A stretch of 18,550 nt of DNA, from UHGV virus genome UHGV-1832352, one strand, 5' to 3'. Shown in pieces: positions 3,527 to 6,720 of the stretch. Position numbers and translations under genes: made by a program. How positions within the stretch are numbered: position 1 is the first letter of the stretch; each line of letters begins with the position of its first letter. Source of the stretch: a virus. Under the pieces are notes generated by a model. That model had not been told where the DNA came from and did no database searches. It saw nothing but the letters and a program-made list of their open reading frames with translations.

Positions 3527-3916
3527 TCAGGCGGCTGCACCCGCCGTTTTCTCGTACTTACTGATGGTGATCTCGACCTTCCCTTTCGGGATAACCGGTC
3601 CCCACTCCACCAGCATTCTTTTCACCTGTCTGTCGTCTTCCCACACACCCGCGTGGGTCAACGCGTCAAACAGCGCCTTGTTATAGTTGTCCAGATCGCG
3701 GATCCGGTTATCCGGAGGAAACAACACGATCTCCACTGCAGCAGGTGCCGACGTTGGTTTTGGCAGACGACGTAACTGCTCAACTATTGCTGCGCACGCC
3801 GCGCTCTGAAATTTTCGCCCCGCCGCGCTTATCAGGCTCTTACCAGCAAACGCCCCTTTGTTGGGGTGTCGCCAGTACGTGTTCACGCTGGGCGGAAAAG
3901 GCAGGATCAGCTTCAT
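3527..3916 (-). CDS. rusA: Holliday-junction resolvase RusA
   Basis: 129-aa ORF with RusA-like motifs (LPFPPSVNTYWRH, DLDNYNKALFDALTHAGVWEDD); ATGA start/stop overlap with the upstream gene at 3913-3916. Confidence 0.85.
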   Translation of the reverse strand: MKLILPFPPSVNTYWRHPNKGAFAGKSLISAAGRKFQSAACAAIVEQLRRLPKPTSAPAAVEIVLFPPDNRIRDLDNYNKALFDALTHAGVWEDDRQVKRMLVEWGPVIPKGKVEITISKYEKTAGAAA

Positions 3917-4239
3917 ACTTTCAGGCCCCTCTCATGTAACCAGTGGGTTGCACGCAGCCTTGCGTTTTCCTCACCGGCAAGCAGTGAGCGGATAATCCCG
4001 ACCGCCTCGCTGTCGTCGTCCTTCACCGCGGTATGAAGCGTGATGCCCCGGGCCACGCCACGCTTTATCGTGATGACGCCTTTTTTCTCCAGTGCGCGAA
4101 GATGCTCCACCGCTGCATTCACTGAACGGTATCCCAGCATGGTTGCCACCTCCTGATTGGTTGGCGGGAAGCCACGTTCTTTCTGATAAGAAATCAGCAT
4201 ATCCAGCACCTGCTGCTGGCATTGAGTTAACGTCGTCAT
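3913..4239 (-). CDS. LexA N-terminal DNA-binding-domain protein (winged helix only; no S24 peptidase domain)
   Basis: 108 aa; LTQCQQQVLDMLISYQKERGFPPTNQEVATMLGYRSVNAAVEHLRALEKKGVITIKRGVARGITL parallels the LexA DNA-binding domain; ATGA overlap with the methyltransferase stop at 4236-4239. Confidence 0.75.
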   Translation of the reverse strand: MTTLTQCQQQVLDMLISYQKERGFPPTNQEVATMLGYRSVNAAVEHLRALEKKGVITIKRGVARGITLHTAVKDDDSEAVGIIRSLLAGEENARLRATHWLHERGLKV

Positions 4240-4889
4240 GCCGCCATCTCCCTGACCAGTTTTTCTGCCTGCTGGCGAACCTGCGCCAGAAAGGCCTCAC
4301 CACATGCCTCAAGTTCATCGCGCCCGATGTAGCTGATTGCCGGTCCCTTCCAGGTCTTGTCGAAAACAGCAATAGCACCAGCGAAGAAAGCGCCTGTCGG
4401 CACCTGCTTCTCATCCTTCGGGATAAACCAGGCAGGCAGTTCAAAACCAATACGCCCGCGAATAAAAGCAATATGATCTGCATCTTCCGGCCACCACACT
4501 TCGCTGGTGGCAGCTTTGATCAGGAAAACATAGCGCCCGCCTTTATCACGCATGGCACTGGCATGCTTCATGATGTAACGCATGCCGGTGATGTATTGCC
4601 CCTCATGCTGACTGGCGCGGCTGTATGGGGGATTACCAAAGGCAGCACCTTTAAGCTCCGCAAGGCGTTCTGACCAGTCATGCGCCAGCGCGTTGTCTTC
4701 CGCCGTGTAATACGCAGCACATTTGGCGTTATCACCGTCAGTGAACAGATCCAGAACAAACGGGCCAAACAGGGTGTTAATTCCCCAGAAAATGTTGTCC
4801 GGCGTGCGCCACTGATCGCCCACTTCCTTCAGTTCATGGGCTGGTTTGTTCCGCAGTTCCACCAGCGCCTGGCAATATTTATTACTCAT
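4236..4889 (-). CDS. Phage DNA N6-adenine methyltransferase (Dam-like)
   Basis: FGNPPYS (NPPY catalytic motif). Start chosen at ATG 4889 (MSNKY...), which overlaps the upstream stop as TAATG, rather than the GTG at 4922. Confidence 0.8.
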   Translation of the reverse strand: MSNKYCQALVELRNKPAHELKEVGDQWRTPDNIFWGINTLFGPFVLDLFTDGDNAKCAAYYTAEDNALAHDWSERLAELKGAAFGNPPYSRASQHEGQYITGMRYIMKHASAMRDKGGRYVFLIKAATSEVWWPEDADHIAFIRGRIGFELPAWFIPKDEKQVPTGAFFAGAIAVFDKTWKGPAISYIGRDELEACGEAFLAQVRQQAEKLVREMAA

Positions 4890-5383
4890 TAAGCCCCCAC
4901 GTAATTCCCTGAGAGATACCACTCTTCACCTGATGCAGCCCGCTTACTGCTTTTCCGTAAACACCGTTCACGACGCGCCAGAAAATTGTTTCGTTCTGGC
5001 TGGGAGTGGCTTTCACGGAATGCCGCCATCCACACCGTTGCAGCACGACGGTATAAGCCCCTGGACTCCAGTTCTTCCGCCTGGCGGGTCAGGCACAAAA
5101 TCTCCCGCGGGTCGTTAGTGCCGACATAGAAATTGCGCATAGGTCTGGTTTCACGAACTGGTTGTAGTTCCGGATCCTGCGCTCTCTCAGTCAGGCGCGG
5201 GAAATGTCTGTGTGTATCTCCTTCACAACGGTGAGCCACACGCCCACTCTGACGTAACTTGCTTGCTGACTGCAGAACGCGCTGCCGTGAGTAACCTGCA
5301 AAAGCATCCGCAATGTCTCCGGAAGTACAGCCCGGATGGGCTTCAATGAATTTCTGAACGTCATTCAAAAGACTCATGCTCAC
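4889..5383 (-). CDS. Hypothetical regulator, wHTH-like N-terminus and PerC-like C-terminal motif (GLYRRAATVW)
   Basis: 164-aa ORF; ATGA overlap with the O-like gene stop at 5380-5383; PerC-family resemblance is from memory of the GLWRRAA..W motif. Confidence 0.6.
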   Translation of the reverse strand: MSMSLLNDVQKFIEAHPGCTSGDIADAFAGYSRQRVLQSASKLRQSGRVAHRCEGDTHRHFPRLTERAQDPELQPVRETRPMRNFYVGTNDPREILCLTRQAEELESRGLYRRAATVWMAAFRESHSQPERNNFLARRERCLRKSSKRAASGEEWYLSGNYVGA

Positions 5384-6372
5384 CCCCTGAATCCTGCCGG
5401 GATCTGGCTGTAGTCCACATTGTCGTAACTGGCTTTGAAGTACGGGTCTTCGCGTTTTTCTGTGTACGTGCTGACGGACGGCGATAAGCGCAGGGAAAGC
5501 TCATCCCATTTTTCCCGCAGCTTCGACGGGCTGAGCACGTTACGGCACCAGAACGGATCGCGGCTGACGCGGCTGTACATCTCGCAGATTTGTTTGTGAG
5601 TACGACCATCCTGCACACACATCAGGCGAATTTCGTTTGCCCATGCTGTCCAGTTCGGTTCTTTGGGACGAACCACCTCGCCGTCACATTCGGCGGCCTG
5701 CTCGTACAGGGCGATGATTTTTTTCCAGAGCCACTGTGCGCAGGTCAAATCATCCTGCGTTCCCCACTGGCGCTTTTTAGGGCTGAATACAACCGCATCA
5801 GGATGGCGAGTTAAAAACTCCTGTTCAGCCGTTTGCGTGTCCGGTTGCGAAGCGTCCGGACGAGAAGAGGTTTTATTCTCTGTAGTAATCTCTGTTGTAT
5901 TCTCTGTAAGATCATTGGGCCATTTTGACCCGATGACAGCGTGTCGTTTTGAACCAATGGATCGTGTCATTTTGCGCCCATCCATCAGGTCACTTTGACC
6001 CGATGGAGAAGTGCATTTTGACCTGATGGATTCGTTCACTTTGACCTCTTCTAAAAGCTCACTTTCATAGTTGATCGTGTAGAAGTTGGTCATGTCACGC
6101 TTCGATTTATTGAGTTGCTCGCGACGCAAAACCCCAAGTGATTTCAGGCTTGCAAATGTGCGTTTCAGAGTGGACTCTGACCAGAACGGAAACTGCTCCA
6201 GCCACTGTTCTGTCGTGTTATAAACCCAGCGAATTCCGCCATGCTCAGTGCCTGAATTCGTTTCATTCAGCCAGTAATGAAGCTGCTGCAACACAATTGC
6301 CTCATTCAGACCAATACGGCATGCAAGATCACGATTTATCACAATGGGCTGGGATGTCATTAACAGGCTCAT
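5380..6372 (-). CDS. Replication initiation protein (lambda O-like) containing the origin iterons
   Basis: 330-aa ORF directly after the cro/CII-position genes; six 23-bp-phased direct repeats lie inside its coding sequence, followed in the direction of transcription by an A/T-rich stretch, as in lambda O/ori. Alternative start at the second Met (6360). Confidence 0.75.
   Translation of the reverse strand: MSLLMTSQPIVINRDLACRIGLNEAIVLQQLHYWLNETNSGTEHGGIRWVYNTTEQWLEQFPFWSESTLKRTFASLKSLGVLRREQLNKSKRDMTNFYTINYESELLEEVKVNESIRSKCTSPSGQSDLMDGRKMTRSIGSKRHAVIGSKWPNDLTENTTEITTENKTSSRPDASQPDTQTAEQEFLTRHPDAVVFSPKKRQWGTQDDLTCAQWLWKKIIALYEQAAECDGEVVRPKEPNWTAWANEIRLMCVQDGRTHKQICEMYSRVSRDPFWCRNVLSPSKLREKWDELSLRLSPSVSTYTEKREDPYFKASYDNVDYSQIPAGFRG
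5921..6048. repeat. Origin iterons: six direct repeats, consensus about CAYTTTGACCNGATGG, 23-bp periodicity
   Basis: Repeat starts at 5921, 5945, 5968, 5991, 6014 and 6037 (last copy partial); spacing 24, 23, 23, 23, 23 bp; located within the O-like coding sequence. Confidence 0.8.
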
Positions 6373-6541
6373 GACCGACCTCTATTTCCCTGAATTTACG
6401 ACGAAACTGTTCGAGCGGACTGAAGCATTCATGTTCATAGCCTTCACGGAGGTAGATAACCCGTTGTGTTTCCGGCTCCCAACGAATGACTCTGACGGGC
6501 ACTCCGTAGTGATCTTTGAACCAGCGGTTAACTTGTCGCAA
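6329..6541 (-). CDS. Hypothetical small protein (70 aa, [24 protein letters not shown]...)
   Basis: TTG start at 6541 preceded by AAGGAGA with about 8-nt spacing; protein-like composition. Overlaps the 6382..6720 ORF in another frame and the O-like start. Confidence 0.4.
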
Positions 6542-6720
6542 AGGACTGTCTCCTTCTGCCGGTTGAAATCACCCACAGCCCACTCTGCAAAGCTGTGGGT
6601 TACAATTTCCCTGTCACCTGGTACATTCACTGCATAGCAATACTCCACCTTCGCTTTTCCACCCGGTACAGGAAGCGCAATCAGTTGCGAGCGACGGTAG
6701 TGTGTTGTTAAACTGTTCAT
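6382..6720 (-). CDS. Hypothetical protein (112-aa ORF; possibly only the N-terminal part is genuine, or frameshifted into 6329..6541)
   Basis: ATG at 6720 overlaps the stop of the upstream gene (ATGA), suggesting translational coupling; the C-terminal half looks less protein-like. Confidence 0.35.

What the first reader, a model, noticed from the sequence alone, without database searches (positions are those of the whole stretch)
5921..6048. Replication origin iterons embedded in the O-like gene
Six direct repeats (consensus about CAYTTTGACCNGATGG) start at 5921, 5945, 5968, 5991, 6014 and 6037, at 23-24-bp phasing, inside the coding sequence of the O-like initiator. They are followed, in the direction of transcription, by an A/T-rich stretch encoding a Thr/Glu-rich linker. 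This mirrors the lambda arrangement, where ori-lambda iterons lie within gene O, but the repeat length and sequence are different. The repeats also impose a repeated peptide motif (IGSK-like) on the protein linker.
Basis: partly seen in the sequence, partly recalled or inferred. Interest (0 to 1): 0.4.

Follow-up and report, generated by a model that had tools for sequence, protein, structure and literature searches.

The report
Phage replication origin inside initiator gene
The repeats are real and are almost certainly the binding sites of a prophage replication origin that sits inside the gene of the protein that binds them, which is the textbook lambda-type layout, built here with a different DNA-binding domain and present in about a third of complete E. 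coli genomes.

Summary
Observation confirmed. Six phased copies (period 23 bp, once 24), plus a degenerate seventh, lie inside a 330-aa O-like gene (5380-6372, minus strand). In the direction of transcription they are followed by the least stable 40 bp of the gene.

The repeat is selected as DNA, not as peptide:
- The motif is read in all three frames.
- In 28 relatives, third-codon variability is 0.78 bits in the N-domain, 0.31 in the repeats and 0.07 in the A/T-rich stretch.

The true unit is a 13-bp semi-palindrome (GGTCA-AAR-TGACC). Across 49 relatives, from E. coli to Staphylococcus phages:
- its two arms change together and stay symmetric;
- its outer triplet tracks two residues (E66, S67) at the start of the predicted recognition helix. 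These are the top two of all N-domain columns by adjusted mutual information.

The N-domain is a winged helix closest to RepA_N/DnaD N-domains, and shows no similarity to lambda O. Only the C-terminal domain is lambda-O-like (E=1e-26). No P-like loader gene is present, and the protein ends in a DnaT-like tail.

Verdict: an origin of the known lambda / RepA_N kind, and a new member of that kind. Origin function is inferred, not shown. Interest is modest.

The parts
5380..6372 (-). O-like replication initiator gene (330 aa) that contains the whole element
   Evidence: ORF and translation. PHROG 391 'replication initiation O-like', E=1e-101. 98.5% identical to the gene annotated 'Primosomal protein I' in phage mEp460_4F5.
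6031..6372 (-). Coding region of the N-terminal winged-helix domain (aa 1-114), the predicted iteron-binding domain. The recognition helix is aa 66-79, and E66/S67 are the specificity residues.
6057..6069 (-). Degenerate seventh (outermost) copy, CTATGAAAGTGAG
   Evidence: In 23-bp register with the others, but only the right arm is kept.
6034..6046 (-). Iteron core 6, GGTCAAAGTGAAC (coding strand)
6011..6023 (-). Iteron core 5, GGTCAAAATGCAC
5988..6000 (-). Iteron core 4, GGTCAAAGTGACC, a perfect 5+3+5 palindrome
   Evidence: (inverted repeat I2)
5965..5977 (-). Iteron core 3, GCGCAAAATGACA (weakest left arm)
5942..5954 (-). Iteron core 2, GTTCAAAACGACA
5918..5930 (-). Iteron core 1, GGTCAAAATGGCC, next to the A/T-rich region
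5870..5915 (-). A/T-rich, purine-skewed stretch: the predicted DNA-unwinding element. It holds three tandem 12-mers (5874-5885, 5886-5897, 5898-5909; coding strand ACAGAGAWTACW), encodes the linker DLTENTTEITTENK, and has a GATC at 5910-5913.
   Evidence: - Least stable 40-bp window of the gene starts at 5872 (dG -45.8 against a window mean of -55.2).
- 30% G+C and 65% purine, against 23% and 70% for lambda.
- Third-codon entropy 0.07 bits.
- Fixed codons: ACA 76%, GAG 100%.
- 97.5% identical in Stx-phage O genes whose flanks are unrelated.
- Copy number varies in 12-bp steps.
5491..5869 (-). C-terminal domain homologous to the lambda O C-terminal domain. It is exchanged as a separate module.
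   Evidence: BLASTP against lambda O: 33% identity over 148 aa, E=1e-26. Window 5380-5882 is 98% identical to SfII/SfIV O genes, whose N-domain and repeats are different.
5383..5409 (-). C-terminal tail SQIPAGFRG, which matches the last 9 residues of E. coli DnaT
   Evidence: 8/9 identical to DnaT SQIPPGFRG. The HannyBb homologue matches 14/20, E=9e-8.

Best explanation
Window 5870-6069 is the replication origin of a lambdoid prophage, placed inside the gene of its own initiator.

**Proposed mechanism**
1. The initiator's N-terminal winged-helix domain (aa 1-114) binds as a two-fold-symmetric pair to each of six 13-bp semi-palindromes (GGTCA-AAR-TGACC).
2. The sites are spaced 23 bp apart, about 2.2 helical turns. 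Occupied sites would therefore stack into a wrapped nucleoprotein complex like the lambda O-some or the RepA_N/Rep-box complex.
3. The strain of that complex opens the adjoining A/T-rich, purine-skewed 12-mer repeats (5870-5915).
4. The C-terminal part of the protein then brings in the host helicase. That part is a lambda-O-like domain plus a DnaT-like tail.

**What is shown here**
- The array and its phasing.
- DNA-level constraint on the repeats and on the A/T-rich stretch.
- Presence of an equivalent array in all relatives.
- Symmetric co-variation of the two arms.
- Co-variation of the half-site with residues 66/67.
- The fold of the N-domain.
- Homology of the C-domain to lambda O.

**What is inferred**
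- Actual binding, wrapping and unwinding at 5870-5915.
- The route of helicase loading.
For: 1. **Not chance.** A phased run of 6 copies, against a maximum of 2 in 20 shuffles. All 5 pattern hits in 18.5 kb fall in the array, against 1.07 expected.
2. **DNA-level, not peptide-level.** The 23-bp period puts the motif in frames 0, 1 and 2, giving the peptides SIRSKC, PSGQSD, DGRKMT, SIGSKR and VIGSKW. In 28 non-redundant relatives, third-codon entropy is 0.776 bits in the N-domain, 0.309 in the iterons (Mann-Whitney p=5e-6) and 0.074 in the A/T-rich part (p=6e-7). Positions 1 and 2 do not differ. Linker codons are fixed: Thr ACA 76% against 28% in the N-domain, Glu GAG 100% against 70%.
3. **Lambda-like position.** In the alignment with lambda O (E=1e-26), the last iteron falls on lambda iteron 4 and the linker on lambda's A/T-rich region.
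4. **Weakest duplex.** The least stable 40 bp of the gene starts at 5872, directly after the last iteron. It is in the top 2% of the window.
5. **Family-wide.** All 49 non-redundant relatives of the N-domain have their own 22-24-bp phased array right after the domain, followed by a T-E-x-T-T-E linker. They come from E. coli, Klebsiella, Providencia, Pantoea/Erwinia-type and Staphylococcus phages.
6. **Symmetric sites.** The arms of NNNCA-WWW-TGNNN co-vary: GGTCA/TGACC, GGGCA/TGCCC, GGACA/TGTCC, TATCA/TGATA, GATCA/TGATC, GCTCA/TGAGC. Complementary pairs number 102 of 172 against 56.5 expected at positions 2/10, and 122 against 82 at positions 1/11.
7. **Protein-DNA co-variation.** The half-site triplet follows residues 66-67 at the start of the predicted recognition helix. 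ES goes with GGT in both E. coli and Staphylococcus clades, SD with GGG, L[IM]/VI with TAT or TAC, N[VA] with GCT, and I[AP] with GAT. 42 of 49 loci agree, and 0 of 10000 permutations reach that. Columns 66 and 67 rank first and second of all N-domain columns (AMI 0.69 and 0.65). The next columns that do not themselves overlap an iteron score 0.33 or less. Column 66 ranks first and 67 second in the Staphylococcus subset. In the Pantoea subset 67 ranks first, and 66 is next among columns that do not overlap an iteron.
9. **Modular inheritance.** N-domain, array and A/T stretch travel together, while at least 8 kinds of C-terminal domain are swapped on. The breakpoint with SfII is at about 5882.
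Against: - No experiment. Nothing here shows binding, unwinding or initiation at this site.
- The A/T-rich stretch is only moderately unstable (30% G+C). 361 of 18510 windows of 40 bp in the 18.5-kb window are at least as weak.
- Copies 2, 3 and 7 are poor matches to the palindrome.
- No helicase or helicase-loader gene was found among the 18 larger ORFs scanned across the window, so the step after opening is unexplained.
- The simple promoter scan found no rightward early promoter on the minus strand, so transcriptional activation as in lambda is not supported by data here.
- The co-variation statistics use related sequences. Permutation p-values overstate independence. The column-ranking control addresses this only partly.
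Confidence: 0.8

Rival explanations
1. The repeats are binding sites for the initiator, but they serve mainly for control rather than as the place where replication starts. They could act in autoregulation, in titration or handcuffing, or as an incompatibility or exclusion determinant against related phages. The origin proper would then lie elsewhere.
For: The protein-DNA co-variation proves only a binding relationship, not initiation. Iterons of plasmids are known to act in copy control and handcuffing (PMC4980987). RepA_N N-domains form tetramers (PMC5703833). The module swapping seen here is what selection for new incompatibility types would produce. pPR9 is cited for exactly that in PMC5703833.
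Against: The array is always directly followed by the least stable, purine-skewed, DNA-constrained stretch. That stretch has no role in a pure titration site. The position matches ori-lambda in the alignment. No other phased array exists in the 18.5-kb window. Control and origin functions normally coexist in the same iterons.
Confidence: 0.08
2. The repeats are a protein-level feature: a repetitive flexible linker made by slippage, with no function as DNA.
For: The region encodes a low-complexity linker. IGSK-like peptides recur three times. The copy number of the 12-mers varies among relatives, as expected for slippage.
Against: The period of 23 bp is not a multiple of 3, so the motif is read in all three frames. 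Third-codon positions are as conserved as first and second positions, and synonymous codon choice is fixed. The arms keep dyad symmetry through changes, which has no meaning for a peptide.
Confidence: 0.03
3. The repeats are sites for another DNA-binding protein of the phage or host (a repressor-like regulator, SeqA/Dam, a recombinase), or merely a recombination joint between exchangeable gene halves.
For: The A/T-rich 40 nt is shared at 97.5% identity between genes whose flanks are unrelated. The SfII breakpoint lies in it, so it does act as a joint. A conserved GATC sits next to it, and the phage encodes Dam.
Against: The half-site sequence tracks residues of the protein encoded by the same gene, and no other column of that protein does as well. 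It does so across phyla, where other phage and host factors differ. There is no DnaA box anywhere in the window.
Confidence: 0.05

Closest known systems
ori-lambda within gene O of phage lambda (and the 6-iteron origins of Stx phages 933W/P27)
   Same: - The array of phased repeats lies in the middle of the initiator gene, with spacing of 20-24 bp in lambda and 23-24 bp here.
- Each repeat has dyad symmetry.
- An A/T-rich, purine-skewed stretch follows in the direction of transcription.
- The encoded peptide is an interdomain linker.
- The C-terminal domains are homologous (33% identity, E=1e-26).
- The N-terminal half plus the repeats form one specificity module, and the C-terminal half forms another.
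- Six copies, as in Stx phages (PMC7466680).
   Different: - The N-terminal DNA-binding domain shows no detectable similarity to lambda O (hhalign probability 0.3%; no PF04492 hit).
- The repeat is a 13-bp semi-palindrome centred on an A-tract, not the 18-19-bp lambda iteron.
- No P-like gene follows. The gene in that position is PerC-like.
- The protein ends in a DnaT-like tail that lambda O lacks.
RepA_N plasmid replicons (pSK41, pTZ2162) and the Vibrio cholerae PLE RepA
   Same: - The origin repeats lie centrally within the rep gene, and the encoded peptide is a dispensable linker (PMC5703833).
[quoted passage not shown]
- The C-terminal domain is host-specific and exchangeable.
   Different: - No sequence-level membership: no PF06970 hit at E<=0.01, and the PDB profile search lists no RepA_N chain at E<=1.
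- Phage context rather than plasmid.
- The C-terminal domain is lambda-O-like here, not the DnaD-like, DnaG-binding C-terminal domain of pSK41.
- A distinct, conserved 12-mer A/T-rich element follows the array.
13-mer repeats of DNA-unwinding elements in oriC and in iteron plasmids such as RK2
   Same: Short tandem repeats (three 12-mers here) in the A/T-rich region beside the initiator sites. They are conserved as DNA. Rep proteins of iteron plasmids bind one strand of such repeats sequence-specifically (PMC4081077).
   Different: The sequence is unrelated (ACAGAGAWTACW). It lies in a coding region. No DnaA box is nearby. Single-strand binding by this initiator is untested.

Membership tests
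lambda-type origin (ori inside gene O) | Array of phased initiator-binding repeats in the middle of the initiator gene | tested here: met
   Six or seven copies at 23-24 bp within ORF 5380-6372. Aligned with the lambda iteron region.
lambda-type origin (ori inside gene O) | Each repeat is an inverted repeat (dimer site) | tested here: met
   13-bp semi-palindrome. Copy 4 is perfect and the others match 3-5 of 5 per arm. The arms co-vary symmetrically across clades.
lambda-type origin (ori inside gene O) | A/T-rich unwinding region directly after the repeats in the direction of transcription | tested here: met
   The least stable 40 bp of the gene starts at 5872. 30% G+C and 65% purine, against 23% and 70% in lambda. 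Unwinding itself was not tested.
lambda-type origin (ori inside gene O) | Initiator N-terminal domain of the lambda O family (Pfam Phage_rep_O) | tested here: not met
   No Pfam or NCBIfam hit. hhalign of the N-domain profile against lambda O gives probability 0.3%.
lambda-type origin (ori inside gene O) | C-terminal domain of the lambda O family | tested here: met
   BLASTP 33% identity over 148 aa, E=1e-26.
lambda-type origin (ori inside gene O) | Adjacent P-type (or DnaC/DnaB-type) helicase-delivery gene | tested here: not met
   The next genes are PerC-like, Dam, a LexA-DNA-binding-domain protein and RusA. No loader or helicase was found among the 18 larger ORFs scanned across the window. 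The same gene order is seen in mEp460_4F5 and SfII.
lambda-type origin (ori inside gene O) | Initiator binds the repeats, and replication starts there | not testable with these tools
   Only indirect evidence: co-variation of residues 66/67 with the half-site.
RepA_N replicons | N-terminal domain matches Pfam RepA_N (PF06970) by sequence | tested here: not met
   No hit at E<=0.01 for the window protein or for any of 66 relatives.
RepA_N replicons | DnaD-NTD-like winged-helix fold of the N-domain | tested here: met
   [not shown]
RepA_N replicons | Origin repeats central in the rep gene, semi-palindromic and converging on an A-tract | tested here: met
   compared with the descriptions in PMC5703833 and PMC7145576.
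RepA_N replicons | Host-specific, exchangeable C-terminal domain | tested here: met
   8 C-terminal clusters on one N-domain family. GFRG-type tails are the commonest endings of the proteobacterial C-terminal clusters and of none of the Staphylococcus-only clusters.

The most novel reading that the evidence does not exclude
The N-domain, its phased semi-palindromes and the ACAGAGAWTAC 12-mer element form one self-contained origin cassette. It is conserved from Staphylococcus to E. coli phages and has a simple, readable recognition code: two residues at the start of the recognition helix set the outer triplet of the half-site. The cassette is shuffled onto many different helicase-recruiting C-terminal domains. 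In the enterobacterial versions the recruiting end is a mimic of the flexible C-terminal tail of host DnaT. This would let the phage load DnaB without any P-, DnaC- or DnaB-type gene of its own, by entering the restart-primosome pathway.
Probability: 0.3. Interest if true: 0.55.

Novelty: new member of a known kind. Interest (0 to 1): 0.35.

Why it matters
**Annotation.** The gene is labelled 'hypothetical protein' in RefSeq E. coli genomes and 'Primosomal protein I', 'transcriptional regulator' or 'DnaD-like helicase loader' in phage records. Yet 1840 of 5426 complete E. coli genomes hold a match to this module. A clear assignment as initiator plus embedded origin would correct these labels.

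**Specificity.** The two-residue to half-site correspondence gives a directly testable specificity code for a widespread family of phage initiators. It also offers a rational way to predict replication incompatibility or cross-activation between co-resident prophages.

**Not new in principle.** It does not change the general picture. An origin inside the initiator gene is textbook for lambda and established for RepA_N plasmids.

Tried and rejected
- **Family searches.** Pfam and NCBIfam on the initiator gave no hit, so the family could not be named from curated models.
- **PDB sequence search.** A profile of the N-domain gave only weak winged-helix hits (E>0.1). The fold search was needed.
- **hhalign.** Against lambda O there was no N-domain similarity. 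Against the SfII O N-domain the result was marginal (probability 37%). Against the Stx-phage O of L007 there was a distant relation (probability 82%).
- **DnaA boxes.** TTWTNCACA does not occur anywhere in the window.
- **Promoter and terminator scan.** Nothing useful for a rightward early promoter, so transcriptional activation is left as an analogy.
- **TRF alone.** It under-reports the array (2.5 copies) because copies 1-3 are diverged.
- **An early error of mine.** I dropped this once family-wide consensus sequences showed the dyad centred on the A-tract.
- **Literature.** Searches of the held library for a description of this particular initiator family, or of a DnaT-like tail on phage O proteins, found none. 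Weaver et al. 2009 on RepA_N could not be opened. Absence from this library is not proof of absence.
- **Peptide-repeat and chance explanations.** Both rejected.
Full report
**1.

On the + strand the motif CAYTTTGACC(N)GATGG starts at 5921, 5945, 5968, 5991, 6014 and 6037. A degenerate seventh copy starts at 6060. Spacing is 24, 23, 23, 23, 23, 23.

- The repeat finder reports a 5-copy 23-nt family. TRF reports only the three best copies.
- A phased run of six 11-mers occurs once. In 20 composition-matched shuffles the longest run was 2.
- The array lies in ORF 5380-6372 on the minus strand (330 aa). This ORF matches PHROG 391 'replication initiation O-like' at E=1e-101, but matches no Pfam or NCBIfam model.

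**2. The repeat is a DNA feature, not a peptide feature.**

A 23-bp period is not a multiple of three, so successive copies are read in three different frames. The encoded peptides are EVKV, SIRSKC, PSGQSD, DGRKMT, SIGSKR and VIGSKW. Only three copies give the 'IGSK-like' peptide.

I collected relatives of the N-terminal domain from phage records and viral contigs and aligned 30 non-redundant ones. The statistics below use the 28 closely alignable ones.

| Region | Third-codon entropy (bits) | Test against N-domain |
|---|---|---|
| N-domain | 0.776 | - |
| Iterons | 0.309 | Mann-Whitney p=5e-6 |
| A/T-rich stretch | 0.074 | p=6e-7 |

First and second codon positions do not differ between these regions. 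The spacers between cores vary more than the cores. In the linker the codons are fixed: Thr is ACA in 76% of cases against 28% in the N-domain, and Glu is GAG in 100% against 70%.

**3. Anatomy.**

Seen on the coding strand and across the family, the conserved core is a 13-bp semi-palindrome, NNNCA-WWW-TGNNN. In the window it reads GGTCA-AAR-TGACC.

| Core | Window coordinates | Note |
|---|---|---|
| 6 | 6034-6046 | |
| 5 | 6011-6023 | |
| 4 | 5988-6000 | perfect palindrome |
| 3 | 5965-5977 | weakest left arm |
| 2 | 5942-5954 | |
| 1 | 5918-5930 | next to the A/T-rich region |

Directly after core 1, in the direction of transcription, come a GATC and three tandem 12-mers (5874-5909; coding strand ACAGAGAWTACW) that encode DLTENTTEITTENK.

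- The least stable 40-bp window of the gene starts at 5872 (dG -45.8 against a window mean of -55.2, top 2% of the 18.5 kb).
- G+C is 30% and the coding strand is 65% purine. The A/T-rich region of ori-lambda has 23% and 70%.

**4. Relation to lambda.**

BLASTP of the protein against lambda O aligns only the C-terminal parts (33% identity over 148 aa, E=1e-26). In that alignment the last repeat falls on lambda iteron 4, and the Thr/Glu linker falls on lambda's A/T-rich region. The element therefore occupies the position of ori-lambda.

The N-terminal domain shows no similarity to lambda O (hhalign probability 0.3%).

No P-, DnaC- or DnaB-like gene is present. The next genes are PerC-like, Dam, a LexA-DNA-binding-domain protein and RusA, and none of the 18 larger ORFs I scanned across the window is a helicase or loader. 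Phages mEp460_4F5 and SfII have the same gene order.

**5. What the N-domain is.**

An AlphaFold2 model built on 66 homologues (pLDDT 85) is a winged helix with the recognition helix at residues 66-79.

- Foldseek also lists the RepA_N chain 4pql and the Rep-DNA complex 5kbj.

This comparison is informative. In RepA_N plasmids such as pSK41, the Rep boxes lie centrally within rep. The peptide they encode is a dispensable linker, and the C-terminal domain is host-specific (PMC5703833). RepA_N iterons are described as semi-palindromic direct repeats converging on a poly-A tract (PMC7145576), which is what is seen here.

By sequence, however, the domain does not match Pfam RepA_N.

**6. The arrangement is family-wide, and the DNA co-evolves with the protein.**

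Relatives of the N-domain come from E. coli, Klebsiella, Providencia, Pantoea/Erwinia-type and Staphylococcus phages (about 50% identity across phyla). All 49 non-redundant loci carry a 22-24-bp phased array immediately after the domain, followed by a T-E-x-T-T-E linker.

The arms of the 13-mer differ between clades but stay mutually complementary:
- GGTCA/TGACC
- GGGCA/TGCCC
- GGACA/TGTCC
- TATCA/TGATA
- GATCA/TGATC
- GCTCA/TGAGC

Complementary pairs number 102 of 172 against 56.5 expected at arm position 2/10, and 122 against 82 at position 1/11.

The outer triplet of the half-site follows the dipeptide at window residues 66-67:
- ES goes with GGT, in both E. coli and Staphylococcus clades.
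- SD goes with GGG.
- L[IM]/VI goes with TAT or TAC.
- N[VA] goes with GCT.
- I[AP] goes with GAT.

42 of 49 loci agree, and none of 10000 permutations reaches that number.

As a control for shared ancestry I ranked every N-domain column by adjusted mutual information with the half-site.

- Columns 66 and 67 rank first and second (0.69 and 0.65).
- The next columns (110-111) are themselves encoded by the first iteron.
- All remaining columns score 0.33 or less.
- Inside the Staphylococcus subset, column 66 ranks first and 67 second.
- Inside the Pantoea subset, column 67 ranks first and 66 comes after columns 111, 114 and 115, which are themselves encoded by an iteron.

This is the strongest computational evidence that the protein binds the repeats embedded in its own gene, as a two-fold symmetric pair per site.

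**7. Modularity.**

Window 5380-5882 is 98% identical to the SfII/SfIV O genes, whose N-domains and repeats are different (15-bp period). The 40-nt A/T-rich stretch alone is 97.5% identical in Stx-phage O genes with unrelated flanks and their own 23-bp array.

Across the family, at least 8 clusters of C-terminal domains are joined to this N-domain type. The N-domain, the array and the A/T stretch thus behave as one origin-specificity module. The C-terminal domain behaves as a second module, as classically found for lambda-family hybrids.

**8. Mechanism proposed.**

1. Pairs of initiator N-domains occupy the six sites.
2. The 23-bp spacing (about 2.2 turns) rotates each site by roughly 70 degrees, which suits a wrapped complex. 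This is an inference.
3. The adjoining 12-mer region melts. This is an inference from position, stability and DNA-level conservation.
4. The C-terminal part recruits the host helicase. This is an inference.

The last nine residues, SQIPAGFRG, match the end of E. coli DnaT (SQIPPGFRG, 8/9). The HannyBb homologue matches the last 20 residues of DnaT at 14/20 (E=9e-8). The DnaT tail is described as a flexible 20-residue tail (PMC5778457).

GFRG-type tails are the commonest endings of three proteobacterial C-terminal clusters, and of none of the Staphylococcus-only clusters. This fits a host-specific docking peptide and may explain the missing loader gene. I did not test it.

**9. Rivals.**

- **Pure control or incompatibility role for the sites.** This cannot be excluded without experiments. 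It does not account for the constrained unwinding element.
- **Peptide repeat or slippage.** Contradicted by the frame, codon and symmetry data.
- **Sites for another factor.** Contradicted by the co-variation with residues of the same gene's product, and by conservation across phyla.

**10. Novelty and verdict.**

An origin inside the initiator gene is textbook for lambda (PMC7466680) and established for RepA_N plasmids. This element is a further member of that kind. It combines a RepA_N/DnaD-like binding domain with a lambda-O-like C-terminal domain.

I found no description of this family's origin in the held literature. RefSeq calls the gene 'hypothetical protein', although 1840 of 5426 complete E. 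coli genomes hold a match to this module.

- Interest is modest (0.35). It rises somewhat if the recognition code and the DnaT-tail idea hold.

Noticed in passing
window 5383-5409 (- strand), aa 322-330 of the initiator: The tail SQIPAGFRG is 8/9 identical to the last residues of E. coli DnaT. A close homologue (HannyBb) matches the last 20 residues of DnaT (E=9e-8). GFRG-type tails are the commonest endings of three proteobacterial C-terminal domain clusters joined to this N-domain, and of none of the Staphylococcus-only clusters. The tail probably explains the 'Primosomal protein I' annotations. It may replace a phage helicase loader.
   Followed up: partly
window 4889-5383 (- strand): The gene in the position of lambda P overlaps the initiator's stop codon (ATGA). 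It is a 164-aa protein with a PerC-like C-terminal half (PF06069, E=8e-9) and an N-terminal half of unknown function (PHROG 23071). No helicase or loader was found among the 18 larger ORFs scanned across the window.
   Followed up: partly
window 5874-5913; L007 1501-1540; L008 1501-1552: The 40-nt ACAGAGAWTACW repeat stretch is 97.5% identical in many Stx-phage O genes (86.5% in a Klebsiella phage). The neighbouring N-domain, the iterons and the C-domain of those genes are unrelated to the window's. The number of 12-mers varies from 3 to 5 among relatives. The stretch may be both an unwinding element and a recombination joint.
   Followed up: partly
window 5860-6372: 1840 of 5426 complete E. 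coli genomes hold a match to this N-domain plus array segment, most of them at 80-90% identity. RefSeq annotates the gene as 'hypothetical protein'. I did not identify which widespread prophage carries the 80-90% class.
   Followed up: no
window 5910-5913 and 4236-4922: A GATC sits between the last iteron and the 12-mers. It is kept in most relatives (TGATCTT or TGATCCT). The prophage encodes a Dam methylase (PF05869, E=1e-45) two genes downstream. A methylation or SeqA link to origin control is possible.
   Followed up: no
window 3913-4239 (- strand): A 108-aa protein matches only the DNA-binding N-terminal 91 residues of LexA (TIGR00498, E=1e-19, below cut-off). It has no protease domain, so it is a stand-alone LexA DNA-binding domain in the early right operon.
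   Followed up: no
window 6382-6720 (- strand): A 112-aa ORF lies between the CII-like gene and the initiator (PHROG 1170, unknown function; RefSeq calls it a DUF4222 protein). It is conserved in mEp460_4F5 and SfII at the same place.
   Followed up: no
L003 (phage SfII) 3001-3942, coding nt about 300-450: The SfII O gene shares the window's C-terminal half at 98% identity. It has a different winged-helix-like N-domain and its own repeats of about 15-bp period (GACCCGTCAAAATCT-like, encoding DPSKSDASKS). This is a second origin type on the same C-terminal module.
   Followed up: partly
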